NCBI GenBank assembly: GCA_964445745.1
Contig: CAYULU010000005.1
Span: 211 to 64,210 of the forward strand
Direction: 5' to 3'
Length of the DNA stretch: 64,000 bases
DNA from: an uncultured bacterium
GTDB lineage: Bacteria > Omnitrophota > Omnitrophia > Omnitrophales > Aquincolibacteriaceae
This document shows positions 45,520 through 63,960 of the stretch, one piece after another. Both the position numbers and the translations under genes were made by a program. Position 1 is the first letter of the stretch, and every line of letters starts with the position of its first letter. The notes under the pieces are model-generated. The model did no database searches. It had not been told where the DNA came from and saw only the letters and a program-made list of their open reading frames with translations.

Positions 45520-45600
45520 GTGAACGGTTTCGGGCAGGAGAGGGTTTGCGTCTGACGAAAATTTGACGTTGAGTGTGTCACCATGAAAAAGGGGAATGAA

Positions 45601-46641: not shown

Positions 46642-46646
46642 AAAAA

Positions 46647-46678: not shown

Positions 46679-46704
46679 GAATTTCTAGTCAGTTCTAACC
46701 GCGC

Positions 46705-48521: not shown

Positions 48522-48718
48522 CTCAAGTAGTTCCTTGTGCGGGCCTTCCTCAATCTCGAAGTTCGTTTATTAGTAGAAAAGTATCTACTTTTAAAGTTTT
48601 TTAAAAAAAATAATCATGTTTCTTCTACCCATCCCGTTCTTAGCTGGCTATCTTGTAATTCGTGAAATGGTTTCACCTGGATCTTGGGACATTTCAAAAT
48701 GACAAGGAGAGCTCGGCA

Positions 48719-51700: not shown

Positions 51701-54700
51701 AATCGGGTGCTGAAAGATATCCGGTTTTCAACTGACGGTGGCGTGACCTGGTCGGCATGGGAGGCGCATGCTTTTGTGAAGACAGTGACGTTGCCCGAAG
51801 GAGAAGGCGAGAAAGAAGTGCTCTGTCAGGTGCGCGATGAAGCGGGGAATGTCGCCCATTTTTCAGATACGATCCAGTATGCAGTGACGCCACAACTGCA
51901 ATTTCTTTCAGATCCAGTTGTGAACGATCCTCTTTATACGCTCCGCTATATTGTGGATGATAAGGAGCGTGAGGAAACGTGGTTGCTCCAACCCGGAGAA
52001 AACCGGCTGATCGTAAAAACAGGAGTAGCTTCTTCCCAGCGTTTTTTTGAATATGCCGTGACGCTTGACCGGATGGAAGACCCGCTTTCCCCCATGCCGG
52101 AGGTCCCGGTTTTGTCGAATGACCTGGTTTCCATGACTGCTACAAACGGGCTGATTCTGAAATATTCCCGAGGGGAGCTTGTCGCGATTGAAAAGTCAGG
52201 GGCATACACACTCTATCCGACGGAATTCGATTCTCAAAACGAACTTGTCGACGGACTTCTTGTGTTTGCCGATGGCGGTAAACTGCTCTATGAAAACGGT
52301 AGGGCTGCTTATCGCTTAAGCGAGGCCGGTGAGCTGACCACGTACAATGCTGACGGGACTGTCGCGTGTGTCGCATTGGCGGATGGCAAAAAGGTTCGCT
52401 TCGCGTACCGGTATGGTGATGCGGGGGAAATCCTTTCGATCATAAGTTATGACGAAGATGCTACAGGGTTTTATGGAAGCGATTCGAAACCTTTCTGGAT
52501 CAAAAAAAATGACGGAACGGTCATGACCTACCATGAAGGTTTCCTGAAATCCTACCAGGATTCTGCGGGAAATGTTTTTCACTACCAAGTGTCCTCCCTT
52601 TATGAATCGGAACAGCTGACGGGGTATCGATCCGACCTTGCTTTTGTAAGCGTACCTGATGATGGCGAATTAATTCCGTTAGCGGTAGTGCTTGCCAATC
52701 CTAATGATTATGTGTCTGTCCGGGCCACGTTGGAAAACGATTTGTCTCTGACGATGGAGTATGACGTAGCCGGTATGATGAAAAAGGTGGTGTCCGGGTC
52801 GGGAGAAGTACTTGAACTTCAAAAAGGTTTACCGGTTTCTTTTACAAACCAAGCGGGGGAGACTTTGACGGTCCGGACGGATCTTTCAGAAAACCAAGAG
52901 CTTCTTTCCATTTCTTTAGGGGGGAGCAATATTCAGCAGGAATATGACGGCGATGGAAATCTGACGGGGATTCGTTTAAACGATGGTACGACCTTCAGAA
53001 TCCGGGAGCTTGGACTTGATCGTATCGTTCTTGAGGACGGGAGTGATTTGAGTGAGCTTGTTTGGAACGGGAGCCGTTTGACGGGTTTTCGGAAGACGGA
53101 TCCGGACGGAAGGGTTGAGATCTACCAGAACTCCAGGATGACGGAACGCATCGAACCAGACGGCAGTCAGACGTTTTTTGTTGATGACTCCGGCGCCAGG
53201 GAGCCTGAAGAAATCCTGACTTCAGATGGTCGAACTTACCAGGTGATCAGGTTTCCGAACGCGGAAGGGTTAACTCAGAGGTTAGCCCAACTTAAGAGCG
53301 TCGATCTTCCCGACGGAACCCGGATCGAAATTGAGGATGGGAAACCGGTCCGCTACATTCAGACCCGACAGATCCAGATCGAAGCTTTTGAGGTCCCTGA
53401 ACTTGTAACAGGGGAATCATTTGTACCGTTGATCGAGCTCCCCGACGCGCAGCTCCGGTCTCTTACCGTGAATTCGGACGGTTTTATTTATAGCGGCGAG
53501 ATCCTTTTTAATGATGGCACTCAATATTTGATCGAGAACAACAAAATCGCGAGGCAAATAGCCCCCGACGGACAATTTGTGGAATTTTCGAAAGAAATAA
53601 CATCCGTGCCGCCGCAACCAGGTGTTCCTCCGGAACCGCTGACGGAACCGGAGATGGAATACCGGAATCATTTGATTGAGTCACAGATGGATTATTTCGT
53701 GGATGGGGCCGGGATTCAAACTGCTACGGGTTTCCCGGTGGATAACTATCAGGGAGAAAACGATCAGCTGTCCGATTACAGCCAGTCTACTTTGGTTGGA
53801 TTTTGGGCGGAAATTCTCGCGGCGATTGCCACGGGGGATTATCAAACCTCCAGGATGACTCAGACTCAGGCATTTGAAAGGCTTGATCAGCTCCTTATCA
53901 ACTACCGGGAAGTTCAGAAACAGGTGGGATGGAACGGGATGGTTGCTTTTTTCAAAATGGTGGAAATCGAGGAGCCTGTGCTTGATTCTCTGGGGGAACC
54001 CACGGGTGAAACCCGAAACGTGATCCATTATCAAAACTGCTTCAACCAGTACGGGTTTGGAGATGCGGTCAATCTTTCGGTCAGTCTGGCCAGTGTGATC
54101 GGCGCCTTGCGAGGAAAGAATTGGGAACTGGAGAGTGCCGCTACTTGTGCCCGGATCCTCTCCTCGGCGAATGAAATCCTCGAGGCGCAGGAACCCGGAT
54201 ACGCGGCATTTTACGATCCTGTGAAAAAACGATTTCATGGCGCCTATGCCCAGGATCGTTCGACGGGGACATGGTCATTTGTGAAAGATTACTACATTGA
54301 CCGGGTTTTCAATGAGTTTCGGCCCGGCGTGGCCTGGGTCGCGGCAAAGTATCCGCAATATCAGCAAGCCTTTGAGAATCTTGATGTTACGCTTCGCGAT
54401 TACCAAGCTGGTGACGGAACCCAGATGGAAATCGCCGCGCCTTTTGACGGGGGAGCGTTCCAGATGTTTTGGCCGCTCATTCATGTGGATGAGACCCGGT
54501 ATCCGGAGTTTGAGACTGCGCTTCGGAATTTCCTTTATGCCCAGGCAGATTTTACAAGCCAGAACGGGATTCCCGGATTGCTTTCGGCAGGAGACCGTCC
54601 GGGCTCGGGCTACGAAGGAAAGATCGGTCTTTCGTCCGCGGCCGAAGCCGATGACCTGAAGTTCGATGACATTGGTTCTCTTTACGGGACGGCGTCCGCT

Positions 54701-57700
54701 TTCGGGGTGGCACCGCATTACACGCTTCAATTTTTTAAAAATATTGAAACAGCATTCCCCGAGATTCTGACTAGCACAGGTTTTGTGGACGCGATCCGGA
54801 TGCAAACAGTGACTTCCACGGACCCGGTGACGAAGGAGACGGTTACAAAAGAAGAACCGGTTTTTTCAACGCAATATTTTGGTGTCGATCAGGCGTCTTT
54901 TATCCTTTCTCTTCTTAAGACGAGCCAAAAATATTTTGATCAATATTTGAACCAGGAGGGGATAAAGCAGGAATTCGACGGCTTGTACGAGTCGATCCAG
55001 CTTAATTTGAAGCCGGCAAATTCCGGAGGCCTTTCCGTTCCGCCGGCATGGGGGGATTCTTTGGCACAGCTTTATGACGGTGACAGTCTTGCCCCGGATG
55101 GTCTCTCGGCACCGCTTGTCCGTGAAGCGAGCTTTGTCCCCGTTATCTTTGATCCGGAATTGGGTTCCGGGAGAATATTTAATTATCGTCAGGAGAGCGA
55201 AACATTTCATCACAGTGAGATTGAGTTCGGGGAAGAACCTGATGTCAGAAGCCTGGGGGTTCAGGAATATCTGATGCTTCCGGGGCGAGCAGACGTTGGC
55301 CGGGCTTTGCTAGGAGGGTATCAGCTGGATCTTTATAACCAGGCTGGCGCTTCAGGTGTTTTCTACGCGCCTGACCAAGGCTATGCGGAAAGCATGCTGA
55401 TGCGCGACCCGGAGATGGGTGAGGTCCGGCGCGTGATTTTTAATTTCCAGCAACCCGCCCACGCGGTTGGACTCTGGAATAATTACCGGGCGAATCAAAT
55501 AGATATTGGCCAGTTTGATTTTTTGTCGATCCCGGTGCGCGTGGAAGACGATACTCCCGAGAACCTCCGGTTGAAATTTGAGTTTAAGGGGACCGGAAAT
55601 ATTTTTGTGACGGACACGCTCCGGCACGGCTGGCAATACATCACGATCCCGGTGGCGAAGCCTGTGACTGGAAAGGCTTATGAGATTGCCACGGTGATTC
55701 AGTCGGTCGACGGCCAGCCCGTCAAAGGCGGACTTTATCTTGGGCCGCTCTCGGGTTTTAAGGTTCGAACGTCCAATGAGCTGGAGTGGAGTACGATGCT
55801 TGGAAAAACGGCGATTGAGATGCAGACCCTTATCCGGAGCAAGATCGCGACCCAGGCCTTGGGAGCCGGCTTGAAAACCGTCGAGGAAGTCCTGGAAGAT
55901 TTCACTCTGGATTCGAAAGGAAATTTGATCGATGGAACCTTGAGGCGAGCCGACGGAAGTATTCAGTATTTTCGTGACGGACTGATGACGAAATGGATTT
56001 TCCGGAACGGCCGGACGGTGCTTTACGAAAAGGGGATCGCGAATTTTATCGTGGATCTTTCTCGCGGCAGGCTTGAAACGGGACGGTTCTATTACGATCA
56101 GGATCTTAAAGGGGACATTCATTCCTTTAATATCCAGGATAATGAACGGAAGCGAATCTTCGGAGCGGATGGGACACTCCAGACACTTGTCCAGGACGGA
56201 CAATTTGTGGATTTTGAAAACGGAGAGATTGCTTCGATCCGGACTCCTCAGGGAACCTTGACTGATCTGGAGTTTGCGGATGATGGAAGCCTTCTTAAGG
56301 CCCATGCCGTGATGAATGACGGACGCACTTTTGATATTGATCAAAAGACGGAACAAAGCGTGGATATGGGAAATGGGGTTACATTGTATTACCAGGGACT
56401 GGTGATCACGGCGGTTGAAACTTCGCAGAACGGAAGGACCGACCTGGCCTACACTTACGACTCTATGGGGCGAATCACGGGAGTGAACGCGACATTTACG
56501 GATCAGGAGCAAACCCGGACACTCTCGTTTTTCGAATATATCCAGCGGCCGGAACGTTTGCTTGAAAAAAGTCATCTCATGGGAAGTGCGTTTGATGTTT
56601 TCTCCGTGGCGGGAGTTGGCGGTTTTAGTGTGGGGACCTTGGCCAATGGCGAGATCACCTGGGGACTGGGAGGTGATTATGGGTACGATTCCAAGGCCCG
56701 GTACCGGTTTAAATATCTTTCCGAATCCGGTCCGACGCTTGGCATGTGCATGAGCCATACCGACTCTCCGCTCCAGATCTCGGATTACGGATTTCTAAGT
56801 TTGACCGTCCGCCAGGATCCCTCGATGAACTGGAACCAGGATTTTGTGCTGAAGCTAAAGTCGCCGTCCTACAAGACCCTTTACACCTTCAGCCTTGATA
56901 GCACGGTAAACGGTGATCAGACTTTCTGGTTCTCGCTGGAGGATAAGGCCGGGCTTGAGGGGGAGATCACGCTCGAAGTGATCCGGCAAAAAGAAGGCGT
57001 CGGCAAAACCGGAACAATTTATCTCAAAGACCTCTCCTACATGAATATTAAAAATTTAGAGCACCCGATCTGGGAGAATGAACTTGGAATTCTTTCGTCC
57101 CAGATCCGGAACTTCAAAATTGAGTCGGATAACCTTACGGATGTGGGAGCAGGGATCGCGACGAAAGAAGCGGTCCGTTATGAGGCCCTCGTGCCATACC
57201 TGGATACCCCGACCCGGATTTTTTATACCGATACTCAAGGTTCCGAGAATCAACTTGTTAACTTTACCCGTTTAGACGGAAGTCAGGTTGAGCTTGAGGG
57301 CGAACACGTGAGCCGTCTGATTCTTCCTGACGGAACCGTTAACGAATATTCGTCCAACTTTCAAAACTCGACCCAGGGAACGATCGAAGGGCCCGGCGAG
57401 GTCCTTGGAGGAACTTTTGACTACAGGTATGGGGCGCTTCGCCGGATAACCCAGGCGGACGGACGGCAATATGATCTTTCCTACGAATTTGACATGGACG
57501 GGCAAGAGATCACCGTCTTTAAAGATGTCCTGAGCGGGGAAGAACGAAGATTCAGGGATGGAAAACTCGTGAGCGCACAGGATGAAAGCGGTCTCCGGAC
57601 GGATTACGAGTATCATGACGGGACATTGATTGGGGCGGAAATGACCTACCGCGACCGGGTCCTGAACAGCACCCAGTATGCTTATCAGAATGAAGGGACC

Positions 57701-60700
57701 CAGGTTACGGATGAGCGGGGGACGACCTGGTTTTACGATACAAACGGGACATTGATCAAGCATCTGACGAAGGAGGGACTTCTTTATGAATATTCCGAAT
57801 ATGTTCAACCGCTTGAAGCTGGCCAGACCGTTGATTTTCAAGATTACAAAAGCGCGCTTTACGCCGCGAGCGGTTTAAAGGCCGTTAGCCTCAAAGGGTA
57901 CCAGGCCCCGGACGGCTCATGGATCATTTTTGAGGGGGACCAAGGATCCGAAGTTCATCTAGCCTCGGGCACCGTGGCGGTCAATCTCGTATTTGACGAA
58001 GATCAGCGAATCAAAACCGGACAAATCCAGTTTGCGGACGGATTGATCCTTGAAATCGAAGACTACGTTCCGGTCCGGGGACGGCTTGCGGGTGGTTTGT
58101 CATTCGACCAGCCGTTGCCTCAAGCGTCGGCGTATGAAATCGTGCAGGATGAGGAGGGCGGGTTCCTCGGGTTTCAATGCAAGGTTGGGGACTACACGAT
58201 GGCTTATAACGCGGCCGGAGAGCTTGTCCGGGCCGAGACCGGTACGGGTGTTTCTCATCATTTCACCTACACAAAAGACACTCAGGGGCGCTTGACTGCG
58301 GCGACAGAGACGGTGCTTACCCAGGTTGCTTTTAACGGTGTTCCGTTTCCCAAAGAGCTTGAACTTCTTGCCGAGCCAGATCAGAAGATTCTCGATTCCG
58401 GAAAAGAAATTGCACGCCATGAAGGAAGCGGTTTCCTGGTCGGAGTTTACAAGGAAGCCCTGAATCAATGGGATGTTTATTCAGGGAGTTTTTCGTCCCA
58501 AGTAGACCGGACAGGGCTTGAGCATTTTCTATCTGGCATCAAGGCCGGTGAATCGGTGGCCGTGGTAGTTTCCGATTCTTCATTTTCCAAGGCTGGAGAC
58601 ACGATCTTTTCGATTTTCGAAGGGCTTGGGGCAGGACAGGTTCGACAGGCGGTGTCGGCGAACCGGAAATGGACTTTTTTCGGGAATGAGAGATTGAATG
58701 CGGGAGAAGGAAGGGAAGCGATGGACCAGGTTTCCTTTTCAACCGTAACGGAAAGCGTAACAACTTACTCGGCCGACCCTGATTCTAATTCGACTTTTCG
58801 GGATGCTCCGCTGCTCCTGGGTTTTGAAGTGCAGGTATCCCAGGCCTACGATACATTTCTCAAAGAGTACCAGTCGCTCAAACTGGATCGCGACCTTCAG
58901 CGGATGACCGTTTATGACGCGAAAAACGAGATGATTTATACACAGCGGCTTGACGGGCTCAGCTCTTTTTACGAGTTCGGTAAAGTGCGAGAGACTTTCG
59001 ATGAGAACGGGAATCTTTTGAGCCTCCATGAATATGGTTGTCTGTCTGGGGCCGGAGCAGTACCGCCTTGCCAAAATTCCGAAGACATTGCGCTGTCCAG
59101 GATTACGCTTGTCAAGGCACGTCAGGATTTAGAAACCGAGGTGCAGGATGCTTCCGTAAAAATTGCGCAGGCCAAATTCGACGCGCTTTATAAACTGGCC
59201 TGGCAGGATGATGTGGCGTGTCTCCAGATCAAGGAAAGTGTGGATGCGGGTGTTGTGGAAATCAATCGTCAAATTTCGAGTCTCGAGTCTCAGCGATATC
59301 AGACCGTCAAACAATGCCGCCGGGTTGTCTTCTGGAAGCATTGTGAAGAGCATACCTACGAAGTGCCCGGGGTCCAGAGCGCGATTAACGGGCTTGTGAG
59401 CCAGCGGGCTGACTTGATCCGGACCGGGGAAGAACAGCTTGCGGCCATCCCCGGAGCCATGGCTGAAAAACAGCTTGAGATTGAACAGACAACCGCTGAA
59501 AAAATGGCGGAGCTTGAGGCACAAAAGCAAAGCGTTATGCTGGATCTTCTCCATCAGGAAATGGAACCGATTCTCACAGATTTTTACAGGCGAATTCTCG
59601 GGCGAGACGTTTCTGATGAGGAATTTGACGATTGGGTGGATCGTTTTAAGGTGGCGGAAGAGATCGATACTTTGACTCTTGAGACGGAACTCTCTGAATC
59701 ACCGGAACGGGGCATGCGCGAAGCGGAGAAGGCCTTGATCCTTCAAGGGGTTCGGGATTTTCTGGGCGACTATCTCGCGTCTTCCGTTGAGGAGAGGGCT
59801 TTGATGCTTCAGGAACTTCGCCTGGATACCTCGGAGGTAGTCGATTTTGATTTAACCGATGTGGACGCCATACTTGCCTGGCTTGAAAGCCGGGATCTTC
59901 ACTTTGGCCAGTCCGCATTTCTCTCCTTAAAGAAGATGCTCGCGGCAAGCGGTGCGGAGGTTTTGATGGCGGTGTTGGGCCGGGAATCAATCCTGATTGA
60001 TATCTTGACTGGGACAATCCACAAATTTACGGAAGGGGATCTTCTCATTTCCATGTTCGCGCTCGATCGGGCCGCGTTGATTCACGCCCGGGATTTTGCG
60101 GTGGTGAGGTATTCCTTTGAGGATTTGAAGCATTTGTATCAATCCGCCTGCGGATCTCAGACGCCGGTCTGCGGTATCCGGGTCATTGCTCATATCGGAG
60201 AAGACCATTTTGTGCTCGTCAAGAGTGTGACGGAGACGGAGGTCACTTATGAGGAAACCGGCAAAGGGATGGAGGGTTCGGATGTTACTGTGACCCGGGA
60301 CCAATTTCTCAGTGTGTGGAACGCGAAAGGCGATTCGGGATACCTGATGGTGGACGAATCTCAAGTGATTTCGGAGAAGCGGCTTTCGGATCGGGAGGCC
60401 ATGCGGGTCCGCGGGGCATTTTTTATTATATTCTTTTTTGTTGCGTCGATTATTTTAACGGTAGTGAGTGTTGCCGTCTCTTTTTTCAGTCCCACGCTGG
60501 GCAAGATTCTCGGCTATGCGGCCCTGGTGGCCGGGATTATCGGGATCGTGGCAAGCCTGGGCCAGCTGGTGATTCAGGGTCTGCAGATGGCCTTTTCGAA
60601 TGTCGCAGCGCAGGGGTTTTTCTCCACGATGACCCAGGGGATCATAAACCTCGGGAAAGTGATCTGGGAGTCGGTGAAATCGGTGGGGCGGTTTGTTCTG

Positions 60701-63079
60701 GAAGGGTTCCAGTTTTTGAAGGGTGGTTTTACCGGAGGGTTTGGAAGTTTCGGAGCCGGGATTACGGACATGCGAGGTTTTCTTTTTGACGGGGCTCGTG
60801 TGCTTGCGGACGGCACGCGGGAATTTACATTTTCGCAGATCGCGGCACGACAGCTTGTGACGGCAGGGCTTACGTCGGGCGTTTCGGTTGGGCTGGAAGG
60901 ACTCGGGATTGATTCGCGGATTGCGGGGCTCGTCGGTGTTTTTGCGGGGGGCGGGTTTTTGGGGATCGGTACATCAGTTTCCGGATTTCTGAAAAGCGGT
61001 CTTCAACAGCTTGTTTTGCAAGGTGTTTCCGAAATGGCGGTTCACATCGGTCTTCCGCCCCCGGTGTCGGGCGCGCTTTCGCTGATCGCGACCCAAAGCC
61101 TCAGCGCATTTTTTGATCCCACGCTTACTCTCAAAGCCGCTCTTATCGATATTGCCCCCACCGCCGCCCAGATGTTGACCCTGGGCGGCCTTGAACTCCT
61201 CGGCCGATCCATGGGTCTTGATCCCCAGCTTGCATCTCTCATCGGATTGCCCGTTGCCGCAGCAGTAGGAGGCGTTACAAAAGATCTTTTAAATCCAAAC
61301 GGTATGACATCCTTGTGGCAATCCATCCAAAATGCCATCCTGAGTTGCGAAGTGGCAGGTGGCATTCTTTCTTTAGGCGCTTCGATCGCAGTTCATGAAT
61401 TAGGACTGGATCAATCGCTGCTTGGATCTTTATCCAGTCGTCTTGTTGCCGGTGCGTTTAGTGATTTCCTGGCGTCACCGGGTAAATTCAATTTTGTTGA
61501 TAGTATTATCAAGTCAGTAGATGGATCTTTTTACGAGTTCTTTGACCCGGCATTTCTTCCTATGCTTTTCGAAACAGTCATGGATCATGGTTTGGCGGAT
61601 GGGATCGAGCAATACGCTATCATGCTTTTCACAAAGGAAACAATCAATGAGATCGCATCTTCAGGTATGAATCTGGGTCAGTGGATCGCAAGAGGATTGC
61701 CGGCAGCTGAAGATGTTGTTTATCAAGGGGAACAAGCCAAACGTCTCCGTCTTGTCCAGAACGGAAAATCCATCAATTTTGTTTACCAGCCCAAAGGTGA
61801 AAAATTAGAATTGCAGGCAATCTATGAAGAATATTCCAACGGCCGCAAGCCCCGGCTTGTTGAATTCACCACGGATGATGAGGGCAGGATTACGCAAGTC
61901 ATGATCATCGAGCAAATGGCGGATGGGACCTTTCGGCAGGATGTTCTTACGCCGACGGGGAATATCAAGGAAGTGATTCTCCGGGATTGGAACGATGAGG
62001 TGTATGGAAAAGTATCTTACAATGCGGCCGGTGAACTTGAATTCACAAATTATAACCTTGGCATTTCTGATTATCTTACGGCGGATGGGCGTTTCAGGTT
62101 TGATTTTACGACGGCTCCGGATTTTCAGGACATGAGTCAGCTTATTTACGATTTTAATACGAATTTGAAACCCGAGGATATCGCTCAGTTAACGGCCTTT
62201 TCTTATGGGAATGGTTTCTGGAATGCTCATCAGTCGCCGGATTCTATTTCAACGATTATGAATGCTTTTATCGATGACCGGCTGGTCGATAACGCGAAGA
62301 CAGGGACGCCTGCGGTCGTGCTCTTTGAAGCTAATGGAGAAATCGCTCGGGACCGGCACGGAAACATCCTCACTACGGTAGCGCTTCCCGTAACACTCTA
62401 TGAAGAAACCAGTTTAGTGGGAAATATTCTTCGCTGGTCTGCGGGAACGTGGTTTGGGGTTCCTACGATGCGTGACGAAGTCGAAAGAGAATTAATTCGT
62501 TATTTGGACCTTATTGAGTTGAACCAGAGAGAATTTAATCTCGATCCCAACATGGATTTTGTCCACTTTGCCCATTCAGGGGATTTCCAGCCCATGATTG
62601 AAGCGCTGGAACATATGCCGGATGAGTACCGTTCCCTCATCAAAACGCTTGTGGTTTACGAGGGGCCTTATGTGGGCGACGGAATTATCAATGATCCGTA
62701 TCTTGAAACGCTTATTCGTGTGCGTGGTGTAAAACCTGGTTTTGAGGTGCCGTTTCTTGAGCATCAAGATTTCCAGATCACCGATCAGAATGGTAATGTC
62801 AAAGCTATTCTAAACCAGTACAATATCGAAATTGCTGGAGCGAACCATAACGACTTCAGCTATGATCCGTCATTCACGTACAGTTGCGCTGAAGAGCGAG
62901 AGATTGCCAGAAAAACGAGTTTATTTATGAGAGATTTGCAACTCCAAGCCAATAATGTTTCACGGCTAGACTTGTTCCTCAAAACGAATACTGTGGGCGG
63001 AGTGACTTATGATAAAAAAACGAAACTTATTTCGGTAAATCCTTTGATGTATAAATCCCCCTTTGGAGACAGACAGTGA
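48719..63079 (+). CDS. Giant membrane-anchored mosaic surface protein or toxin-like protein (about 4,786 aa from ATG 48719; 4,805 aa from GTG 48662)
   Basis: A single uninterrupted ORF. The ATG at 48719 is preceded by aaggagag. The N-terminal TM anchor is FFRSVALLTVFFFTWNQLGF. Downstream modules, in order:
- eight Ig-like repeats
- dispersed YD/RHS-like repeats (YTYDSMGRITGV, EYDGDGNLTGIRL, YEFDMDGQEITV)
- a glucan-hydrolase-like alpha/alpha-barrel region
- a DUF4214 motif (DFYRRILGRDVSDEEFDDWV)
- a C39-like domain
- a glycine-rich hydrophobic block
- a C-terminal hydrolase-like module. Confidence 0.85.
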   Translation: MKEGQEASKGNTEFQDSLKMLIQHVRQKMSWRKPEKGSRVSRKIKRMSEISKLPAPFVMAKQDGKKFFRSVALLTVFFFTWNQLGFSDGTLLLDYEVPFQTYVSSAGGGDSDSVPQGLLPDQRSHEDFGAESLSFIAGNSPLSAPDSTRPDEPVQDSGIRSLEGSQSVTAGTDEWTLVYRDVSLELRGVNTNTVEAVSGHYYRDTYGNPFYYTDYNYRGGLFMQKTGTTSDLHTFRGFMEVDLSALYEEDVDPEQIARVELVFDTVSAKSGSYAFSIYDMNANEDGLFPSGSASAGTHYTGSSSLVQSVKKKTFKKNVSQQSTVDVTESVLRDLRAGKLWTGFFATPDSTMPKIQLSNIRLKVTYGKLVPPVTGTIAINSGTTYTSSRTVKLNLSATDNGSGMGVGGMSFSNDNIHWTSITPYAKSKSYELPSGDGEKTVYVRYYDEAGNVSETYSTSIILDTRGPKGKMTVNGGEKYIHETTVTLNLSAMDDGSGVGKMCFSSDGTFWTEVEDYAETKEWTFPSGDGYKKVYVKFQDKSGRWSVVSGVKVKLDTQIPTGSIKINAGAAYTSFSKVKLNFTGSDKGSGMSGVSFSFDGTNWEPLVRFVSSKSVVLPAGDGVKTVYVKFYDKAGNASPVYSDTIIMDTLPPTGTVEVNGGARFINQPDVTLNLNAVDEGSGLSKMRFSSNGTTWTSAENYSETKAWTFPSGDGAKKVYVKFQDNRGRWSSVTSVTVTLDTVAPLGSIAMNGGAAYTNNREVMLTLSGTDNASGVCQMSFSTNGTTWSMAEAYQTTKSYVLPSGDGRKTVYVRYYDTAGNVSMVYSKSIILDVTPPAVVIDVETPSLINVKTMMINYTSDAIAKTKTFADLKEGENTLSIIENDSAGNQAIATWQVVVDTMAPALVIDATTPSLINVKTLTVNYTLDGVLKTKTFSGLLEGENTLVITETDLVGNSSTTIWKVEVDTIAPSGTIVLNDGESETGSCSVTVYVNVTDNRVLKDIRFSTDGGVTWSAWEAHAFVKTVTLPEGEGEKEVLCQVRDEAGNVAHFSDTIQYAVTPQLQFLSDPVVNDPLYTLRYIVDDKEREETWLLQPGENRLIVKTGVASSQRFFEYAVTLDRMEDPLSPMPEVPVLSNDLVSMTATNGLILKYSRGELVAIEKSGAYTLYPTEFDSQNELVDGLLVFADGGKLLYENGRAAYRLSEAGELTTYNADGTVACVALADGKKVRFAYRYGDAGEILSIISYDEDATGFYGSDSKPFWIKKNDGTVMTYHEGFLKSYQDSAGNVFHYQVSSLYESEQLTGYRSDLAFVSVPDDGELIPLAVVLANPNDYVSVRATLENDLSLTMEYDVAGMMKKVVSGSGEVLELQKGLPVSFTNQAGETLTVRTDLSENQELLSISLGGSNIQQEYDGDGNLTGIRLNDGTTFRIRELGLDRIVLEDGSDLSELVWNGSRLTGFRKTDPDGRVEIYQNSRMTERIEPDGSQTFFVDDSGAREPEEILTSDGRTYQVIRFPNAEGLTQRLAQLKSVDLPDGTRIEIEDGKPVRYIQTRQIQIEAFEVPELVTGESFVPLIELPDAQLRSLTVNSDGFIYSGEILFNDGTQYLIENNKIARQIAPDGQFVEFSKEITSVPPQPGVPPEPLTEPEMEYRNHLIESQMDYFVDGAGIQTATGFPVDNYQGENDQLSDYSQSTLVGFWAEILAAIATGDYQTSRMTQTQAFERLDQLLINYREVQKQVGWNGMVAFFKMVEIEEPVLDSLGEPTGETRNVIHYQNCFNQYGFGDAVNLSVSLASVIGALRGKNWELESAATCARILSSANEILEAQEPGYAAFYDPVKKRFHGAYAQDRSTGTWSFVKDYYIDRVFNEFRPGVAWVAAKYPQYQQAFENLDVTLRDYQAGDGTQMEIAAPFDGGAFQMFWPLIHVDETRYPEFETALRNFLYAQADFTSQNGIPGLLSAGDRPGSGYEGKIGLSSAAEADDLKFDDIGSLYGTASAFGVAPHYTLQFFKNIETAFPEILTSTGFVDAIRMQTVTSTDPVTKETVTKEEPVFSTQYFGVDQASFILSLLKTSQKYFDQYLNQEGIKQEFDGLYESIQLNLKPANSGGLSVPPAWGDSLAQLYDGDSLAPDGLSAPLVREASFVPVIFDPELGSGRIFNYRQESETFHHSEIEFGEEPDVRSLGVQEYLMLPGRADVGRALLGGYQLDLYNQAGASGVFYAPDQGYAESMLMRDPEMGEVRRVIFNFQQPAHAVGLWNNYRANQIDIGQFDFLSIPVRVEDDTPENLRLKFEFKGTGNIFVTDTLRHGWQYITIPVAKPVTGKAYEIATVIQSVDGQPVKGGLYLGPLSGFKVRTSNELEWSTMLGKTAIEMQTLIRSKIATQALGAGLKTVEEVLEDFTLDSKGNLIDGTLRRADGSIQYFRDGLMTKWIFRNGRTVLYEKGIANFIVDLSRGRLETGRFYYDQDLKGDIHSFNIQDNERKRIFGADGTLQTLVQDGQFVDFENGEIASIRTPQGTLTDLEFADDGSLLKAHAVMNDGRTFDIDQKTEQSVDMGNGVTLYYQGLVITAVETSQNGRTDLAYTYDSMGRITGVNATFTDQEQTRTLSFFEYIQRPERLLEKSHLMGSAFDVFSVAGVGGFSVGTLANGEITWGLGGDYGYDSKARYRFKYLSESGPTLGMCMSHTDSPLQISDYGFLSLTVRQDPSMNWNQDFVLKLKSPSYKTLYTFSLDSTVNGDQTFWFSLEDKAGLEGEITLEVIRQKEGVGKTGTIYLKDLSYMNIKNLEHPIWENELGILSSQIRNFKIESDNLTDVGAGIATKEAVRYEALVPYLDTPTRIFYTDTQGSENQLVNFTRLDGSQVELEGEHVSRLILPDGTVNEYSSNFQNSTQGTIEGPGEVLGGTFDYRYGALRRITQADGRQYDLSYEFDMDGQEITVFKDVLSGEERRFRDGKLVSAQDESGLRTDYEYHDGTLIGAEMTYRDRVLNSTQYAYQNEGTQVTDERGTTWFYDTNGTLIKHLTKEGLLYEYSEYVQPLEAGQTVDFQDYKSALYAASGLKAVSLKGYQAPDGSWIIFEGDQGSEVHLASGTVAVNLVFDEDQRIKTGQIQFADGLILEIEDYVPVRGRLAGGLSFDQPLPQASAYEIVQDEEGGFLGFQCKVGDYTMAYNAAGELVRAETGTGVSHHFTYTKDTQGRLTAATETVLTQVAFNGVPFPKELELLAEPDQKILDSGKEIARHEGSGFLVGVYKEALNQWDVYSGSFSSQVDRTGLEHFLSGIKAGESVAVVVSDSSFSKAGDTIFSIFEGLGAGQVRQAVSANRKWTFFGNERLNAGEGREAMDQVSFSTVTESVTTYSADPDSNSTFRDAPLLLGFEVQVSQAYDTFLKEYQSLKLDRDLQRMTVYDAKNEMIYTQRLDGLSSFYEFGKVRETFDENGNLLSLHEYGCLSGAGAVPPCQNSEDIALSRITLVKARQDLETEVQDASVKIAQAKFDALYKLAWQDDVACLQIKESVDAGVVEINRQISSLESQRYQTVKQCRRVVFWKHCEEHTYEVPGVQSAINGLVSQRADLIRTGEEQLAAIPGAMAEKQLEIEQTTAEKMAELEAQKQSVMLDLLHQEMEPILTDFYRRILGRDVSDEEFDDWVDRFKVAEEIDTLTLETELSESPERGMREAEKALILQGVRDFLGDYLASSVEERALMLQELRLDTSEVVDFDLTDVDAILAWLESRDLHFGQSAFLSLKKMLAASGAEVLMAVLGRESILIDILTGTIHKFTEGDLLISMFALDRAALIHARDFAVVRYSFEDLKHLYQSACGSQTPVCGIRVIAHIGEDHFVLVKSVTETEVTYEETGKGMEGSDVTVTRDQFLSVWNAKGDSGYLMVDESQVISEKRLSDREAMRVRGAFFIIFFFVASIILTVVSVAVSFFSPTLGKILGYAALVAGIIGIVASLGQLVIQGLQMAFSNVAAQGFFSTMTQGIINLGKVIWESVKSVGRFVLEGFQFLKGGFTGGFGSFGAGITDMRGFLFDGARVLADGTREFTFSQIAARQLVTAGLTSGVSVGLEGLGIDSRIAGLVGVFAGGGFLGIGTSVSGFLKSGLQQLVLQGVSEMAVHIGLPPPVSGALSLIATQSLSAFFDPTLTLKAALIDIAPTAAQMLTLGGLELLGRSMGLDPQLASLIGLPVAAAVGGVTKDLLNPNGMTSLWQSIQNAILSCEVAGGILSLGASIAVHELGLDQSLLGSLSSRLVAGAFSDFLASPGKFNFVDSIIKSVDGSFYEFFDPAFLPMLFETVMDHGLADGIEQYAIMLFTKETINEIASSGMNLGQWIARGLPAAEDVVYQGEQAKRLRLVQNGKSINFVYQPKGEKLELQAIYEEYSNGRKPRLVEFTTDDEGRITQVMIIEQMADGTFRQDVLTPTGNIKEVILRDWNDEVYGKVSYNAAGELEFTNYNLGISDYLTADGRFRFDFTTAPDFQDMSQLIYDFNTNLKPEDIAQLTAFSYGNGFWNAHQSPDSISTIMNAFIDDRLVDNAKTGTPAVVLFEANGEIARDRHGNILTTVALPVTLYEETSLVGNILRWSAGTWFGVPTMRDEVERELIRYLDLIELNQREFNLDPNMDFVHFAHSGDFQPMIEALEHMPDEYRSLIKTLVVYEGPYVGDGIINDPYLETLIRVRGVKPGFEVPFLEHQDFQITDQNGNVKAILNQYNIEIAGANHNDFSYDPSFTYSCAEEREIARKTSLFMRDLQLQANNVSRLDLFLKTNTVGGVTYDKKTKLISVNPLMYKSPFGDRQ
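49825..51890 (+). repeat. Array of eight tandem Ig-like domain repeats inside the giant ORF (coding repeats)
   Basis: Repeat units begin at about 49825, 50112, 50388, 50664, 50941, 51217, 51418 and 51620. The consensus is P.G.I.INGGA.YT....V.L.L.A.D..SG...M.FS.DG..W...E.Y...K...LPSGDG.K.VYV...D.AGN. Confidence 0.8.
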
Positions 63080-63960
63080 AAAACTTTTTTGGGGGAGGTG
63101 TGTGTGGGTGTGTTTTCCTAGCTTTTTTTTTCCTTTTTTTCTGTTCATCTCTTGAGGCGAAGTCGCCAATGTCAGATGCCGACTATCAACAGGTTCTGAA
63201 TGATCAGGCCGACTATCATAGCTTTTTGAGAGAAGCTGACCGATGGGAGTGCCAACGCGATTATGGGCGCGCAGTTTTTTTTCATGAAAAAGCTTTCTTT
63301 ATGGCGAAGGGAAGTAGCTTGGAGCCGGTTTCGCGTGGTGAGTTGGCAAGGCTGTATGAGTTGGATGGGCAATATGAAAAAGCTTTAGAAGAGATCGACT
63401 GGTTCCTGGTTAAGTCAAACAAATCTTCCCCCCTGTGGGATAGATTTGTAGATTCAAGACAACGACTCCTTCAGAAAATCGAAGCGCAGATGCGAGGAGA
63501 AAAAATTGAAGAGCCGAATTCTGCAAACGTTGTTTCTCAACAGAAGCAATTAATTCGGAGAATATCGGATTTCCACACAGCGGGTTATGACGATCAAAAG
63601 CAATTTCTCGAAAAAGAGCTTCCCGAGGGTACGGATATCCTGCGGCTGTCCAAACGGGCAATGCTGGCTGAGCATGCGGGGAATTTTAAGGACGCTAAAG
63701 GGTTTTACGAACAGCTACTGGCTCAAAAAGAGGGTGTTGCGGCCGTGTACGGGGAAGCTGCTTGGGTAATGCTCCATCCTGCTGTTCAGCGCATGTCTGA
63801 ATTGACCGGAGATGAGACGCGAGAAAAAGAGATGCTCGTTTGGATTCGTGATTATATGTTAGCCCCAGATGGACAACACCATAAGTATCTTAACGGGCTA
63901 ATGCCGCCTGTTCAGGGCCATCTCAAGGAACGTCTCAAAAAGTTTGGTCTCAATTCTTAG
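63076..63960 (+). CDS. Secreted helical-repeat (TPR-like) protein, translationally coupled to the giant gene
   Basis: 294 aa. Its GTG start overlaps the giant-gene stop (GTGA). The signal-peptide-like N-terminus is GGGVCGCVFLAFFFLFFCSSLEA. The remainder is predicted helical, with TPR-like YxxA/L spacing by eye only. Confidence 0.6.
   Translation: MKNFFGGGVCGCVFLAFFFLFFCSSLEAKSPMSDADYQQVLNDQADYHSFLREADRWECQRDYGRAVFFHEKAFFMAKGSSLEPVSRGELARLYELDGQYEKALEEIDWFLVKSNKSSPLWDRFVDSRQRLLQKIEAQMRGEKIEEPNSANVVSQQKQLIRRISDFHTAGYDDQKQFLEKELPEGTDILRLSKRAMLAEHAGNFKDAKGFYEQLLAQKEGVAAVYGEAAWVMLHPAVQRMSELTGDETREKEMLVWIRDYMLAPDGQHHKYLNGLMPPVQGHLKERLKKFGLNS

What the first reader, a model, noticed from the sequence alone, without database searches (positions are those of the whole stretch)
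59870..60360. C39/papain-like domain in which the expected nucleophile Cys is Ser
The segment LAWLESRDLHFGQSAFLSLKKMLAASG ... IAHIGEDHFVLVKSVTETEVTYEE ... FLSVWNAKGDSGYLMV follows the layout of peptidase C39-like domains: Q-x-C-G/A near an N-terminal helix, then the His in an H-F/Y-V-V-L strand.

The nucleophile position is Ser (TCC at 59912-59914). The putative His (CAT at 60206-60208) is retained.

Degenerate C39-like domains are known to act as substrate-binding modules, as in the HlyB CLD. Alternatively this could be a Ser-His autoprocessing site placed exactly before the hydrophobic block.
Basis: partly seen in the sequence, partly recalled or inferred. Interest (0 to 1): 0.55.

Follow-up and report, generated by a model that had tools for sequence, protein, structure and literature searches.

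The report
Serine-variant C39 protease with built-in substrate
Near the end of a 4,805-residue Omnitrophota surface protein sits a bacteriocin-leader-type (C39) protease domain whose catalytic cysteine is naturally a serine, followed 55 residues later by what looks like its own cleavage signal just before a membrane anchor, which gives a precise, testable site where such giant proteins may cut themselves.

Summary
Window 59891-60355 (residues 3744-3898 of the ORF at 48662-63079) folds as a C39 peptidase domain. Ser3751 occupies the nucleophile position, His3849 the catalytic His and Glu3865 the catalytic Asp position.

This is a family trait, not a degenerate one-off. Among 164 related domains, almost all in giant Omnitrophota proteins:
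- the nucleophile column is Ser 142, Cys 13, Val 1;
- His is 160/161;
- the acidic residue is Glu 82, Asp 77;
- an H-F-G motif at -4 to -2 accompanies Ser (136/142) but rarely Cys (1/13).

This matches the double-glycine leader that C39 peptidases cleave (LSxxELxxIxGG). Gly(-2) is invariant (151/151) and position -1 is Ala or Ser. A transmembrane hairpin follows directly.

Best explanation (about 0.55): a Ser-His-Glu C39 variant that cuts its own chain once, after Gly3918-Ala3919. This would separate the roughly 3,900-residue ectodomain from a membrane-embedded, lipase-like C-terminal module that varies between homologues. A non-catalytic, CLD-like latch remains possible.

C39 domains in Omnitrophota giant proteins are already published. 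I found no description of the Ser switch or the cis leader. Verdict: new variant of a known kind.

The parts
48662..63079 (+). Giant ORF (4,805 aa) that carries the domain. It has an N-terminal signal-like segment, Ig-like (Big) domains, RHS/YD repeats, an ILEI domain and coiled-coil regions, followed by the module described here.
   Evidence: ORF list; Pfam scan of the whole protein; homologues in Omnitrophota MAGs.
48911..48982 (+). Signal-peptide-like or signal-anchor-like segment, KKFFRSVALLTVFFFTWNQLGFSD (aa 84-107). It implies that the bulk of the protein, including the C39-like domain, lies outside the cytoplasm. This is an inference.
   Evidence: Direct reading of the translation. No signal-peptide predictor was available.
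59852..59890 (+). Extra N-terminal helix (aa 3731-3743) that precedes the C39 core and is absent from ComA and PCAT1.
   Evidence: Secondary structure of the AF2 model, helix 15-27.
59891..60355 (+). C39-fold peptidase-like core (aa 3744-3898).
   Evidence: Foldseek against the PDB; hhalign against ComA; profile against PCAT1; Pfam PF03412 in all aligned homologues.
59900..59908 (+). H-F-G motif (His3747-Phe-Gly3749) at positions -4 to -2 from the Ser. It is specific to the Ser-type members.
   Evidence: HFG is present in 136/142 Ser-type domains and 1/13 Cys-type domains.
59912..59914 (+). Ser3751 (TCC), at the nucleophile position on the N-cap of core helix alpha1.
   Evidence: Column counts Ser 142, Cys 13, Val 1. 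hhalign pairs it with ComA Cys17, at low per-residue confidence. The model helix 34-46 starts at Ser35. Codons in 60 loci are TCN 58 and AGY 2.
59999..60013 (+). Family-specific insertion motif (L-I-D-I-L-T-G) with near-invariant Asp3780 and invariant Gly3784. It has no counterpart in ComA.
   Evidence: Asp 152/155 and Gly 155/155. It appears as a 13-residue insertion relative to ComA in hhalign.
60206..60208 (+). His3849 (CAT), the catalytic His equivalent, at the start of a beta-strand.
   Evidence: His 160/161. It aligns with the His of PCAT1's 'LAHFVV' strand (matched by position) and with His96 of ComA.
60254..60256 (+). Glu3865 (GAA), at the position of the third triad residue (the Asp of the 'DP' motif in C39).
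   Evidence: Column counts Glu 82, Asp 77. It aligns with ComA Asp112 and the Asp of PCAT1's 'ADPGKG' motif.
60383..60418 (+). Double-glycine-type leader-like motif, L3908-S-D-R-E3912-A-M-R-V3916-R-G3918-A3919. The predicted scissile bond is Ala3919|Phe3920 (60418|60419).
   Evidence: Logo over 151 homologues: L/I(-12), S/T(-11), E/Q(-8), I/V(-4), R/K(-3), Gly(-2) 151/151, Ala 95 / Ser 52 at -1. Of 94 regex matches in family proteins, 92 lie at this spot, against 0 expected by shuffling. It is the only match in all six frames of the window. In the AF2 model positions -10 to -5 are helical and pLDDT is about 94. The consensus is taken from PMC6959990 and PMC1538908.
60419..60586 (+). Transmembrane hairpin: aa 3920-3942 and 3947-3975, joined by a short loop.
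   Evidence: Kyte-Doolittle 19-residue means of 2.9 and 2.3. The 22 residues after the motif are hydrophobic (mean above 1.5) in 109/151 homologues.
60587..62164 (+). Gly/Ala/Leu-rich amphipathic block with repeated 'G-L-D/N-P-x-L-A-x-L-x-G'-like units, plus a linker region. In paralogues the conserved sequence ends and the variable C-terminus begins inside this block.
   Evidence: Composition Gly 13 %, Leu 13 %, Ala 10 %. P0005 and P0004 are 94 % identical up to 'GLPISAAVGGLV' and unrelated afterwards.
62165..63076 (+). C-terminal alpha/beta-hydrolase (lipase/cutinase-like) domain. Candidate catalytic residues are Ser4639 (H-S-G) and His4729 (G-A-x-H-x-D).
   Evidence: AF2 model with pLDDT 73. 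Foldseek hits are lipases, cutinases and dienelactone hydrolases at probability up to 0.99 but TM-score only about 0.4. Invariant columns.
63076..63960 (+). Downstream gene for a TPR protein whose start overlaps the giant gene's stop. TPR genes also follow both paralogues in Omnitrophus fodinae. Its role is unknown; immunity or chaperone functions are possible.
   Evidence: Pfam TPR_14; gene neighbourhood of locus L061.

Best explanation
The segment is a C39-fold peptidase domain in which the thiol nucleophile has been replaced by serine. The candidate triad is Ser3751-His3849-Glu3865, supported by a Ser-specific H-F-G motif.

Proposed mechanism (inferred):
1. The domain binds, in cis, the leader-like helix encoded about 45 residues downstream (L3908...V3916).
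2. It places Gly3918-Ala3919 in its narrow active-site cleft.
3. It cuts its own chain once, between Ala3919 and Phe3920, directly in front of the first helix of a transmembrane hairpin.

The cut would separate the roughly 3,900-residue N-terminal ectodomain (Ig-like domains, RHS repeats, the protease and the leader) from an 886-residue C-terminal module. That module has a TM hairpin, a glycine-rich amphipathic block and a lipase-like alpha/beta hydrolase, and it is exchangeable between homologues as in polymorphic toxins.

Ser rather than Cys would suit an enzyme that works outside the cytoplasm, where a thiol is easily oxidised. A slow Ser-based papain-fold catalyst is sufficient for a single-turnover cis cleavage.

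Shown: the fold, the residue equivalences, family-wide conservation, the leader-like motif and its position.
Inferred: catalysis, the exact scissile bond, the topology, and the biological role of the fragments.
For: Fold:
- Top Foldseek PDB hits are PCAT1, LahT150, ComA and StbD-CT, at probability 1.00 and TM-score (target-normalised) 0.65-0.70 for the isolated domains.
- The HlyB CLD (3ZUA) is not among the top 50 hits.

Residue equivalence:
- hhalign of the family against ComA gives probability 95.6 %, E=1.1e-8.
- It pairs Ser with Cys17, His with His96 and Glu with Asp112. The ComA sequence was verified against PDB 8hf7.
- The family profile against PCAT1 pairs the same His and acidic positions.

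Selection on the triad:
- Nucleophile column Ser 142, Cys 13, Val 1; His 160/161; acidic residue Glu 82, Asp 77.
- P0145 carries 'HFGEC' in the same sequence context.
- Ser codons are TCC 26, TCG 26, TCT 3, TCA 3, AGY 2. Ser is therefore kept while the codon drifts and even switches codon family.
- HFG co-varies with Ser.

Cis substrate:
- The motif [LI]-[ST]-x-x-[EQ]-[AT]-x-x-[IV]-[RK]-G-[AS] is present in 151 homologues, with Gly(-2) invariant.
- It matches the published leader consensus, L(-12)xxxE(-8)L(-7)xxxxG(-2)G(-1) with a hydrophobic residue at -4 (PMC6959990) and LSxxELxxIxGG / G(G,S,A) (PMC1538908).
- 92 of 94 regex matches lie at this position, against 0 expected by shuffling.
- It is also kept in about 30 homologues where no hydrophobic segment follows. 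It is therefore not simply a membrane-flanking motif.
- In the AF2 model, positions -10 to -5 are helical, as in the CtA and LahT leaders. The segment has pLDDT about 94, and confidence collapses right after Gly-Ala.

Precedents:
- A C39 domain auto-processes in cis at Gly-Gly in the CdiA-like toxin StbD, but only under reducing conditions.
- Some papain-fold enzymes retained measurable activity after a Cys-to-Ser mutation (PMC10318531).
Against: - No biochemical evidence exists. Ser-for-Cys replacement usually cripples papain-fold peptidases.
- The canonical oxyanion Gln, six residues before the nucleophile, is absent. That position is Asp here and S/N/D/G across the family.
- Non-catalytic C39-like domains can apparently also retain the His (from memory of the HlyB CLD literature, not checked here), so conservation of His is not proof of activity.
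- The Ser-to-Cys17 pairing in hhalign has low per-residue confidence. Pfam's C39 model never aligns to the N-terminal half of these domains. The equivalence therefore rests on helix order and spacing, the AF2 model, and the Ser/Cys-only column.
- I could not read model coordinates. The docking of the leader into the groove and the Ser-His distance are not measured.
- Position -7 is Ala or Thr rather than the Leu that is important in PCAT substrates.
- The Arg/Lys-rich flank before TM1 would, by the positive-inside rule, argue for a cytoplasmic location. That would weaken the redox rationale for Ser.
Confidence: 0.55

Rival explanations
1. Catalytically dead C39-like domain (CLD-type). It binds the downstream leader-like helix in cis without cutting it, acting as a latch or pseudo-substrate. 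This would hold the ectodomain against the membrane hairpin, or would chaperone or position the hydrophobic segment during membrane insertion.
For: - The thiol is missing and the canonical oxyanion Gln is absent.
- CLDs of RTX exporters are established substrate-binding, non-proteolytic C39 relatives (PMC6363468).
- The high-confidence AF2 placement of the leader segment is equally compatible with stable binding.
Against: - A pure binding module has no need to restrict the nucleophile column to Ser or Cys (155 of 156), nor to keep His (160/161) and Asp/Glu (159 of 162 aligned).
- It also has no obvious need for the Ser-specific HFG motif.
- Substrates of CLD transporters are not processed at a double-glycine leader. 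Here the Gly-Ala/Ser site is the most conserved feature of the linker, at 4.3 and 3.2 bits.
- The domain resembles active PEP domains more than the HlyB CLD. 3ZUA is absent from the sequence hits and from the top 50 fold hits.
Confidence: 0.25
2. An active peptidase whose real substrates are other proteins, either prey or competitor proteins or co-secreted precursors. This would resemble the Tox-PL-C39 toxin domains and StbD-CT, which cleaves GyrB and ParE at Gly-Gly. The adjacent motif would be incidental or only an autoinhibitory plug.
For: - C39-type domains act as toxins in polymorphic toxin systems (PMC3482391). StbD-CT is among the fold hits and cleaves target proteins.
- Some relatives carry 2-4 Cys-type copies per protein, most of them without a following leader motif.
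Against: - In the Ser-type members the domain is not at the C-terminal, variable, toxin position. It lies in the conserved region upstream of the variable part.
- The leader-like motif is tied to the domain in 92 of 94 occurrences.
- No other leader-like sequence exists in the 64-kb window.
- A Ser-based papain fold is expected to be a poor multi-turnover enzyme (inference).
Confidence: 0.12
3. The segment is not a papain-fold domain at all. The 'HFGQSA' region would be a SeqA-N / ribbon-helix-helix-like helix-loop-helix, and the C39 resemblance would be a chance match limited to the His strand.
For: - The family profile hits the SeqA N-terminal domain (1xrx) at E=4e-4 over 41 residues: 'HIGESA' against 'HFGQSA'.
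- The window domain alone scores below Pfam's threshold.
Against: - The AF2 model (pTM 0.83) matches C39 structures over 148-186 aligned columns.
- hhalign covers 123 columns, including alpha1 to alpha3.
- Family members pass the PF03412 gathering score.
- The order and spacing of helices and strands follow ComA and LahT: nucleophile to alpha2 is 18 residues here against 17 in ComA, with His on one beta-strand and the acidic residue at the end of the next.
Confidence: 0.03

Closest known systems
Peptidase domains of peptidase-containing ABC transporters (PCAT/AMS): ComA, PCAT1, LahT150. MEROPS C39, Pfam PF03412.
   Same: - Same fold.
- His and the acidic residue sit on consecutive strands, and the nucleophile sits at the N-cap of helix alpha1.
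- The substrate signal has the same layout: hydrophobic residues at -12 and -4, acidic or amide at -8, Gly at -2, a small residue at -1, and positions -10 to -4 helical.
   Different: - The nucleophile is Ser, not Cys. An H-F-G motif precedes it in place of the Gln at -6. The third residue is Glu as often as Asp.
- There is a 13-residue 'LIDILTG' insertion and an extra N-terminal helix.
- The domain is not fused to an ABC transporter. It is embedded at residue ~3750 of a giant protein.
- The substrate motif lies in the same chain, C-terminal to the domain.
- Position -7 is Ala/Thr, not Leu. Position -3 is Arg/Lys. Position -1 is Ala/Ser, not Gly.
- The domain is probably extracytoplasmic.
C39-like domain (CLD) of RTX type I secretion ABC transporters (HlyB)
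   Same: A C39 fold without the catalytic Cys. In CLDs this fold binds the substrate polypeptide.
   Different: - CLD substrates are not cleaved and have no double-glycine leader.
- Here the nucleophile column is restricted to Ser/Cys and a Gly-Ala/Ser leader is conserved.
- There is no ABC transporter context.
- The HlyB CLD is not among the sequence or fold hits.
StbD-CT, the C39 peptidase toxin of a CdiA-like protein (PDB 8ssm; bioRxiv 10.64898/2026.05.07.723447)
   Same: A C39 domain inside a very large surface or exported protein that cleaves its own chain in cis at a Gly-Gly-type site next to the domain. It is a fold hit at rank 4.
   Different: - StbD uses Cys and is active only when reduced.
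- Its cleavage site lies N-terminal to the domain.
- The StbD domain is itself the C-terminal toxin. Here the domain lies upstream of a TM hairpin and a separate C-terminal enzyme.
Releasing peptidases of polymorphic toxin systems (Zhang et al. 2012, PMC3482391)
   Same: - The architecture is repeats (RHS/YD), then a processing peptidase, then a variable C-terminal module.
- Paralogues share 94 % identity up to a breakpoint and then carry unrelated C-termini, with a small gene downstream.
   Different: - The releasing peptidases illustrated in that paper's Figure 2 are HINT, ZU5, PrsW, caspase and MCF1-SHE; its table also names PVC-metallopeptidase and Tox-PLOTU. C39 appears there as a toxin domain (Tox-PL-C39).
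- No immunity gene has been identified here.
- No recognised secretion-system marker was found.
Papain-fold families with a conserved Ser in place of Cys: menin, APC5867/PF09641, DUF2145, DUF2272, DUF3750 (PMC10318531)
   Same: A natural Cys-to-Ser replacement at the nucleophile position with the rest of the active site retained. Activity is unproven in those families too.
   Different: - Those families are unrelated to C39.
- None comes with an identifiable cis substrate motif.
- C39 is not listed among the Ser-containing families in that survey.
C39 domains reported in giant Omnitrophota proteins (West-Roberts et al. 2023, bioRxiv 10.1101/2023.11.21.568195; 2026 preprint 10.64898/2026.06.07.730766)
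   Same: Same phylum and the same kind of host protein. Those authors already proposed that C39 domains may cleave giant proteins into pieces.
   Different: In the passages I retrieved by keyword from those papers there is no mention of the Ser replacement, the HFG motif or a cleavage-site motif. They state that information about cleavage points is lacking.

Membership tests
Peptidase C39 (PF03412; bacteriocin/leader-processing peptidase) | Papain-like alpha+beta fold with the compact C39 (PEP) topology | tested here: met
   AF2 model pTM 0.83. Foldseek top hits are PCAT1, LahT150 and ComA at probability 1.00. hhalign probability is 95.6 %.
Peptidase C39 (PF03412; bacteriocin/leader-processing peptidase) | Score above the Pfam gathering threshold | tested here: inconclusive
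   The window domain scores 12.8 bits against a 22-bit cut-off. Family members P0011, P0012, P0016, P0145 and P0141 score 23-70 bits. Matches cover only profile positions ~45-130.
Peptidase C39 (PF03412; bacteriocin/leader-processing peptidase) | Catalytic Cys at the N-terminus of helix alpha1 | tested here: not met
   Ser3751 (TCC) in the window. The family column is Ser 142, Cys 13, Val 1.
Peptidase C39 (PF03412; bacteriocin/leader-processing peptidase) | Catalytic His on the central strand | tested here: met
   His3849 aligns with ComA His96 and the His of PCAT1's 'LAHFVV' strand. It is present in 160/161 family members.
Peptidase C39 (PF03412; bacteriocin/leader-processing peptidase) | Asp, usually in a 'DP' motif, on the next strand | tested here: met
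   Glu3865 is at that position. The family column is Glu 82, Asp 77, a conservative replacement.
Peptidase C39 (PF03412; bacteriocin/leader-processing peptidase) | Gln six residues before the nucleophile (the proposed oxyanion residue) | tested here: not met
   Position -6 is Asp3745 in the window and S/N/D/G across the family. A conserved His-Phe-Gly occupies positions -4 to -2 instead.
Peptidase C39 (PF03412; bacteriocin/leader-processing peptidase) | Substrate with a double-glycine-type leader | tested here: met
   A leader-like motif is present in cis at aa 3908-3919 and conserved in 151 homologues. Actual cleavage was not tested.
Peptidase C39 (PF03412; bacteriocin/leader-processing peptidase) | N-terminal fusion to an ABC exporter (TMD plus NBD) | tested here: not met
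   There is no ABC_membrane or ABC_tran hit in the giant protein. The domain sits at aa ~3750 of 4,805 and is followed by a TM hairpin and an alpha/beta hydrolase.
Peptidase C39 (PF03412; bacteriocin/leader-processing peptidase) | Proteolytic activity | not testable with these tools
   This needs expression of the fragment and mutants, or proteomics.
C39-like domain (CLD) of RTX exporters | C39 fold lacking the catalytic Cys | tested here: met
   Ser replaces Cys, and the fold is confirmed.
C39-like domain (CLD) of RTX exporters | Substrate is bound but has no double-glycine cleavage site | tested here: not met
   A conserved Gly-Ala/Ser leader-like motif follows the domain.
C39-like domain (CLD) of RTX exporters | Part of an ABC transporter of a type I secretion system | tested here: not met
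   There is no ABC transporter domain in the protein. The only ABC-type ATPase among the ten neighbouring genes scanned (30602-48096 and 63076-63960) is UvrA-like.
Polymorphic toxin with releasing peptidase | Repeats, then a peptidase, then a variable C-terminal module, with recombination-type breakpoints | tested here: met
   RHS repeat hits. P0005 and P0004 are 94 % identical over 954 aa and then unrelated. Different C-terminal domains occur among homologues, including PF05708 in P0008.
Polymorphic toxin with releasing peptidase | Cognate immunity gene immediately downstream | tested here: inconclusive
   A TPR-protein gene follows in the window and after both O. fodinae paralogues. No known immunity family was identified.
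Polymorphic toxin with releasing peptidase | Recognised trafficking domain (T5SS/T6SS/T7SS and similar) | not tested
   Only Pfam was run on the whole protein, and no secretion-system marker was seen.

The most novel reading that the evidence does not exclude
A whole clade of C39 peptidases in Omnitrophota has switched its nucleophile from Cys to Ser, with a co-evolved H-F-G motif. The clade works as a single-turnover, redox-insensitive cis-autoprotease outside the cytoplasm, functionally analogous to GAIN/SEA autoproteolysis in eukaryotic giant surface proteins. By cutting at a built-in double-glycine-type leader, it would release a giant ectodomain from a bacteriocin-like, membrane-inserting C-terminal effector that carries exchangeable enzymes. 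That would make these proteins self-processing 'giant bacteriocins' or polymorphic toxins used in predation.
Probability: 0.35. Interest if true: 0.78.

Novelty: new variant of a known kind. Interest (0 to 1): 0.62.

Why it matters
1. Whether and where giant Omnitrophota proteins are cut is an open question. The 2023 study that described them says cleavage points are unknown. This finding supplies one exact, conserved candidate bond (Gly-Ala/Ser | Phe before a TM hairpin) and the enzyme for it. Both can be tested with a ~270-residue construct and three point mutants, or by searching existing proteomes for the predicted neo-termini.

2. A natural, family-wide Cys-to-Ser switch in C39, with occasional Cys members in the same sequence context and a co-varying H-F-G motif, is a clean system for asking how a papain-fold active site is retuned for a hydroxyl nucleophile.

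3. A redox-insensitive double-glycine protease paired with a portable leader tag could be useful for leader removal in peptide engineering under oxidising conditions.

4. The motif offers a sequence signature for annotating processing sites and module boundaries in hundreds of giant proteins.

Tried and rejected
- The word-indexed homologue search with the domain alone found nothing. A phmmer search of the PDB with the single sequence gave only chance CodY hits. A longer query and profiles were needed.
- hhalign of the 13-sequence alignment against ComA aligned only the His/Asp half. The 164-sequence family profile extended it to the nucleophile helix, but with low per-residue confidence there.
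- The SeqA N-domain similarity was considered as an alternative fold for the N-terminal part. It was rejected because of the full-length C39 structural match.
- I considered that the Gly-Ala motif is merely a membrane-interface feature. This was rejected because it is retained where no hydrophobic segment follows.
- I looked for separate leader-bearing peptides in the window and found none.
- I looked for extra copies of the domain in the window and found none.
- The frameshifted relative P0001 turned out to differ by a single T in a homopolymer run within a short-read contig. It is not biologically informative.
- Literature searches for a Ser-type C39 found no description. The library is incomplete, so this is not proof of absence.


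Full report
**1. The observation**

The finding lies inside one very long ORF, 48662-63079 on the + strand, 4,805 codons. TCC at 59912-59914 is Ser3751 in LHFGQSAFLSL, and CAT at 60206-60208 is His3849 in GEDHFVLV.

Taken alone, the segment is only a sub-threshold match to Pfam Peptidase_C39. It scores E=0.11 and 12.8 bits against a 22-bit cut-off, and only the His-containing half matches. A single-sequence search of the PDB gave noise.

**2. A large family, nearly all in giant Omnitrophota proteins**

- A search with the C-terminal 1,306 residues found 12 homologues. Some were already tagged PF03412, and some are named by NCBI as 'cysteine peptidase family C39 domain-containing protein' from Candidatus Omnitrophica.
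- A profile of ten domain sequences (A1) was run against 1.84 billion cluster representatives. It found 562 proteins at E<=1e-3 and 172 at E<=1e-30, mostly 2,000-7,000 residues long.
- A scan of species-representative genomes returned 60 loci. Nearly all are from Omnitrophota MAGs or are labelled only 'uncultured bacterium'; about a dozen are labelled Planctomycetia. The closest are 86 % identical.
- All ten aligned members hit PF03412 (best E=2.5e-10), and several pass the gathering score.

**3. Fold and residue equivalences**

An AlphaFold2 model of residues 3717-3931, built from 13 sequences, has mean pLDDT 83 and pTM 0.83. Its best Foldseek matches in the PDB are all C39 peptidase domains:
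- PCAT1 (6v9z, E=5e-4);
- LahT150 with bound leader (6mpz);
- ComA (5xe8, 3k8u; TM-score 0.65-0.70 normalised to the target);
- the C39 toxin domain of the CdiA-like protein StbD (8ssm).

The HlyB CLD does not appear among the sequence hits or the top 50 fold hits.

Sequence profiles give the residue equivalences:
- The family profile aligns His3849 with the His of PCAT1's 'LAHFVV' strand and Glu3865 with the Asp of its 'ADPGKG' motif; I take these to be PCAT1's catalytic His and Asp by position.
- A profile of 164 family domains against ComA gives hhalign probability 95.6 %, E=1.1e-8 over 123 columns. It pairs Ser with Cys17, His with His96 and Glu with Asp112.

The per-residue confidence at the Ser/Cys pair is low, and Pfam's model never aligns to this N-terminal half. 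The equivalence therefore also rests on geometry:
- Ser35 of the model caps the first core helix (34-46).
- The spacing to the next helix is 18 residues, against 17 in ComA.
- His starts one beta-strand (133-140) and Glu ends the next (144-149), as described for LahT (Cys27 on alpha1, His101 on beta4, Asp117 on beta5; PMC6363468).
- Relative to ComA there is an extra N-terminal helix and a 13-residue insertion (LIDILTG) with near-invariant Asp and invariant Gly.

**4. Do homologues carry Cys?**

Yes, a minority do, and this is informative. Over 164 aligned domains:

| Position | Residues observed |
|---|---|
| Nucleophile | Ser 142, Cys 13, Val 1 |
| Catalytic His | His 160, Lys 1 |
| Acidic residue | Glu 82, Asp 77 |

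- One Cys member (P0145) has the same context, HFGEC.
- Across 60 genomic loci the Ser codon is TCC 26, TCG 26, TCT 3, TCA 3, AGT 1, AGC 1. Ser is thus held while the third codon position drifts. The two AGY cases need a passage through Cys or Thr, or a double change.
- The three residues before the nucleophile region, His-Phe-Gly at -4 to -2, are present in 136/142 Ser-type but only 1/13 Cys-type domains. These counts are not phylogenetically independent.
- The Gln at -6 of canonical C39 enzymes is not conserved.

A column restricted to the two possible nucleophiles, an intact His and acidic pair, and a motif that tracks the hydroxyl variant together form the pattern expected of an active site that changed chemistry. 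It is not the pattern of a decayed active site.

**5.

About 45 residues after the last invariant domain residue, and immediately before the hydrophobic block, the window encodes L3908-S-D-R-E-A-M-R-V-R-G3918-A3919 at 60383-60418, followed by FFIIFFFVASIILTVVSVAVSFF.

The conservation over 151 homologues is as follows:

| Position | Residues | Information (bits) |
|---|---|---|
| -12 | L/I | 3.2 |
| -11 | S/T | 2.2 |
| -8 | E/Q | 2.2 |
| -7 | A/T | 2.1 |
| -4 | I/V | 3.2 |
| -3 | R/K | 3.1 |
| -2 | Gly (151/151) | 4.3 |
| -1 | Ala 95, Ser 52 | 3.2 |
| +1/+2 | Phe, Phe/Trp | |

This is the layout of the double-glycine leaders that C39 peptidases cleave:
- L(-12)xxxE(-8)L(-7)xxxxG(-2)G(-1), with a specificity residue at -4 and positions -10 to -4 forming a short helix in the groove (PMC6959990; PMC6363468);
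- LSxxELxxIxGG, with G(G/S/A) variants (PMC1538908).

Further support:
- A regular expression for the motif matches 94 times in 445,464 residues of family proteins. 92 matches are at the C-terminal edge of the domain, and none are expected in shuffled sequences.
- It occurs once in all six frames of the 64-kb window.
- It is kept in about 30 homologues in which no hydrophobic stretch follows, including Cys-type first copies. This argues for a recognition site rather than a membrane-interface feature.
- In the model, positions -10 to -5 are helical and Arg(-3)/Gly(-2) are in a beta-bridge state. pLDDT is about 94 through the linker and leader and collapses right after Gly-Ala.

I could not read the coordinates, so docking into the groove is inferred, not measured.

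**6. Surroundings**

- Hydropathy shows a strong hairpin at aa 3920-3942 and 3947-3975. A Gly/Leu/Ala-rich amphipathic block with repeated G-L-D/N-P-x-L-like units follows.
- The last 304 residues model as an alpha/beta hydrolase (pLDDT 73). Foldseek hits are lipases, cutinases and dienelactone hydrolases at probability up to 0.99 but TM-score about 0.4. H-S-G and G-A-x-H-x-D motifs are invariant. This assignment is moderate.
- C-termini differ among homologues. P0008 carries PF05708 and P0005 carries another hydrolase.
- In Omnitrophus fodinae two paralogues on one contig are 94 % identical over 954 residues, which include the C39-like domain, the leader and the hairpin. They become unrelated inside the Gly-rich block, and transposase genes lie between the copies.
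- The N-terminal part has Ig-like domains and RHS repeats. This is the logic of polymorphic toxins: repeats, a processing peptidase and an exchangeable C-terminal module (PMC3482391).
- A TPR-protein gene overlaps the stop codon in the window. TPR genes also follow both O. fodinae copies.
- The N-terminus has a signal-like segment. If it is used, the domain is extracytoplasmic. The Arg/Lys-rich flank of TM1 argues the other way, so the topology is open.

**7. Mechanism proposed**

The domain is a Ser-His-Glu variant of C39. It binds its own downstream leader and cuts once after Gly3918-Ala3919. This would free the ectodomain, which keeps the protease and the leader, from the membrane-embedded C-terminal module.

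Two precedents make this chemically and biologically reasonable:
- The C39 domain of StbD auto-processes in cis at Gly-Gly, but only when reduced. This shows why a thiol is a liability outside the cytoplasm.
- Some papain-fold enzymes retained measurable activity after a Cys-to-Ser mutation (PMC10318531). A single-turnover cis reaction does not need a fast enzyme.

I put this explanation at about 0.55. The main rival, at about 0.25, is a non-catalytic CLD-like latch that binds the leader without cutting. A trans-acting toxin or processing peptidase is at about 0.12. A non-papain fold is effectively excluded.

**8. What is known and what is new**

C39 domains in Omnitrophota giant proteins are published, as is the idea that they might cleave them (West-Roberts et al. 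2023; a 2026 preprint lists a PF03412 architecture cluster). NCBI already names relatives as C39-domain proteins.

In the passages I retrieved by keyword from those papers, and in my literature searches, I found no description of the following:
- the family-wide Ser nucleophile;
- the HFG motif;
- the cis double-glycine-type leader;
- the resulting predicted cleavage point.

The 2023 paper states that cleavage points are unknown. A survey of Ser-containing papain-fold families does not include C39. I therefore class this as a new variant of a known kind.

**9. Limits**

- There is no biochemical evidence.
- Residue-level structural superposition was not available.
- Only the best 150 of the 562 family representatives could be inspected.
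- The counts are not corrected for phylogeny.
- The literature library is incomplete.

Noticed in passing
window ~59864-59985 (aa 3735-3775): The family profile's N-terminal helix-loop-helix ('DAILAWLESRDLHFGQSAFLSLKKML') matches the SeqA N-terminal oligomerisation domain (PDB 1xrx, '[26 protein letters not shown]') at E=4e-4. This is probably a local convergence on a G-x-S helix N-cap, but it is unexplained.
   Followed up: partly
P0009 aa ~845-1095 and about 10 other family members (alignment columns between helix alpha4 and strand beta3): Some homologues carry a 250-400-residue insertion inside the C39-like domain, between the nucleophile half and the His half. In P0009 it is a Laminin_G_3/concanavalin-like domain, PF13385, E=2.8e-19.
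   Followed up: no
window 60481; L062 (Logan contig SRR34069004_506217): A public short-read contig is 99.7 % identical to window 60086-63130 but lacks one T in a T6 run at 60481. The gene caller therefore started the protein (P0001) in another frame (ORF 60316..). This is likely an assembly error or a strain indel just inside TM1.
   Followed up: yes
L061 (Candidatus Omnitrophus fodinae ASOC01000009.1), genes at 1-924 and 10001-16435: Two paralogues (P0004, P0005) are 94 % identical over 954 aa, through the C39-like domain, leader and TM hairpin. They diverge completely after 'GLPISAAVGGLV' in the Gly-rich block. Transposase genes (Y1_Tnp/rve, IstB) lie between them. The pattern is like orphan or displaced C-terminal cassettes of polymorphic toxins.
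   Followed up: partly
window 63076-63960 (+); L061 921-1457 and 17108-18097: A TPR-repeat protein gene follows the giant gene, and its start overlaps the stop codon. TPR-like genes also follow both O. fodinae paralogues. The gene could encode an immunity protein, a chaperone or an assembly partner.
   Followed up: no
window 62165-63076 (aa 4502-4805): The C-terminal domain models as an alpha/beta hydrolase (lipase/cutinase-like). Ser4639 in H-S-G is invariant, and His4729 and Asp4731 in G-A-x-H-x-D are invariant. Pfam detects nothing there.
   Followed up: partly
P0032, P0110, P0141, P0152, P0153 (family members): A Cys-type sub-group ('V-I-N-C-A' instead of 'H-F-G-x-S-A') occurs in 2-4 copies per protein. 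The first copy keeps the Gly-Ala leader but is followed by non-hydrophobic sequence. Later copies have 'DHAV' at the His and no leader.
   Followed up: no
window ~59570-59650 (aa ~3640-3665, 'LTDFYRRILGRDVSDEEFDDWVDRFK'): A motif conserved in all homologues upstream of the domain ('YRRILGRDPS..E...W') resembles, from memory, the DUF4214 repeat. Pfam gave no hit at E<=1.
   Followed up: no
window 60587-61860 (aa ~3976-4400): The Gly-rich hydrophobic block contains at least four similar units: 'LEGLGIDSRIAGLVG', 'HIGLPPPVSGALS', 'SMGLDPQLASLIG' and 'HELGLDQSLLGSLS'. No known family matches, and only two segments reach classical TM hydrophobicity.
   Followed up: no
window 46705-48096 (-) and 30602-35323 (+): The upstream neighbours are a FadL/TodX-type outer-membrane channel on the opposite strand and a 1,573-aa protein with SdrD_B and FlgD-Ig-like domains. 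Housekeeping genes lie further upstream (gpsA, dnaJ, grpE, hrcA, ftsH-like, uvrA-like). The giant gene is therefore chromosomal, not on an obvious mobile element.
   Followed up: no
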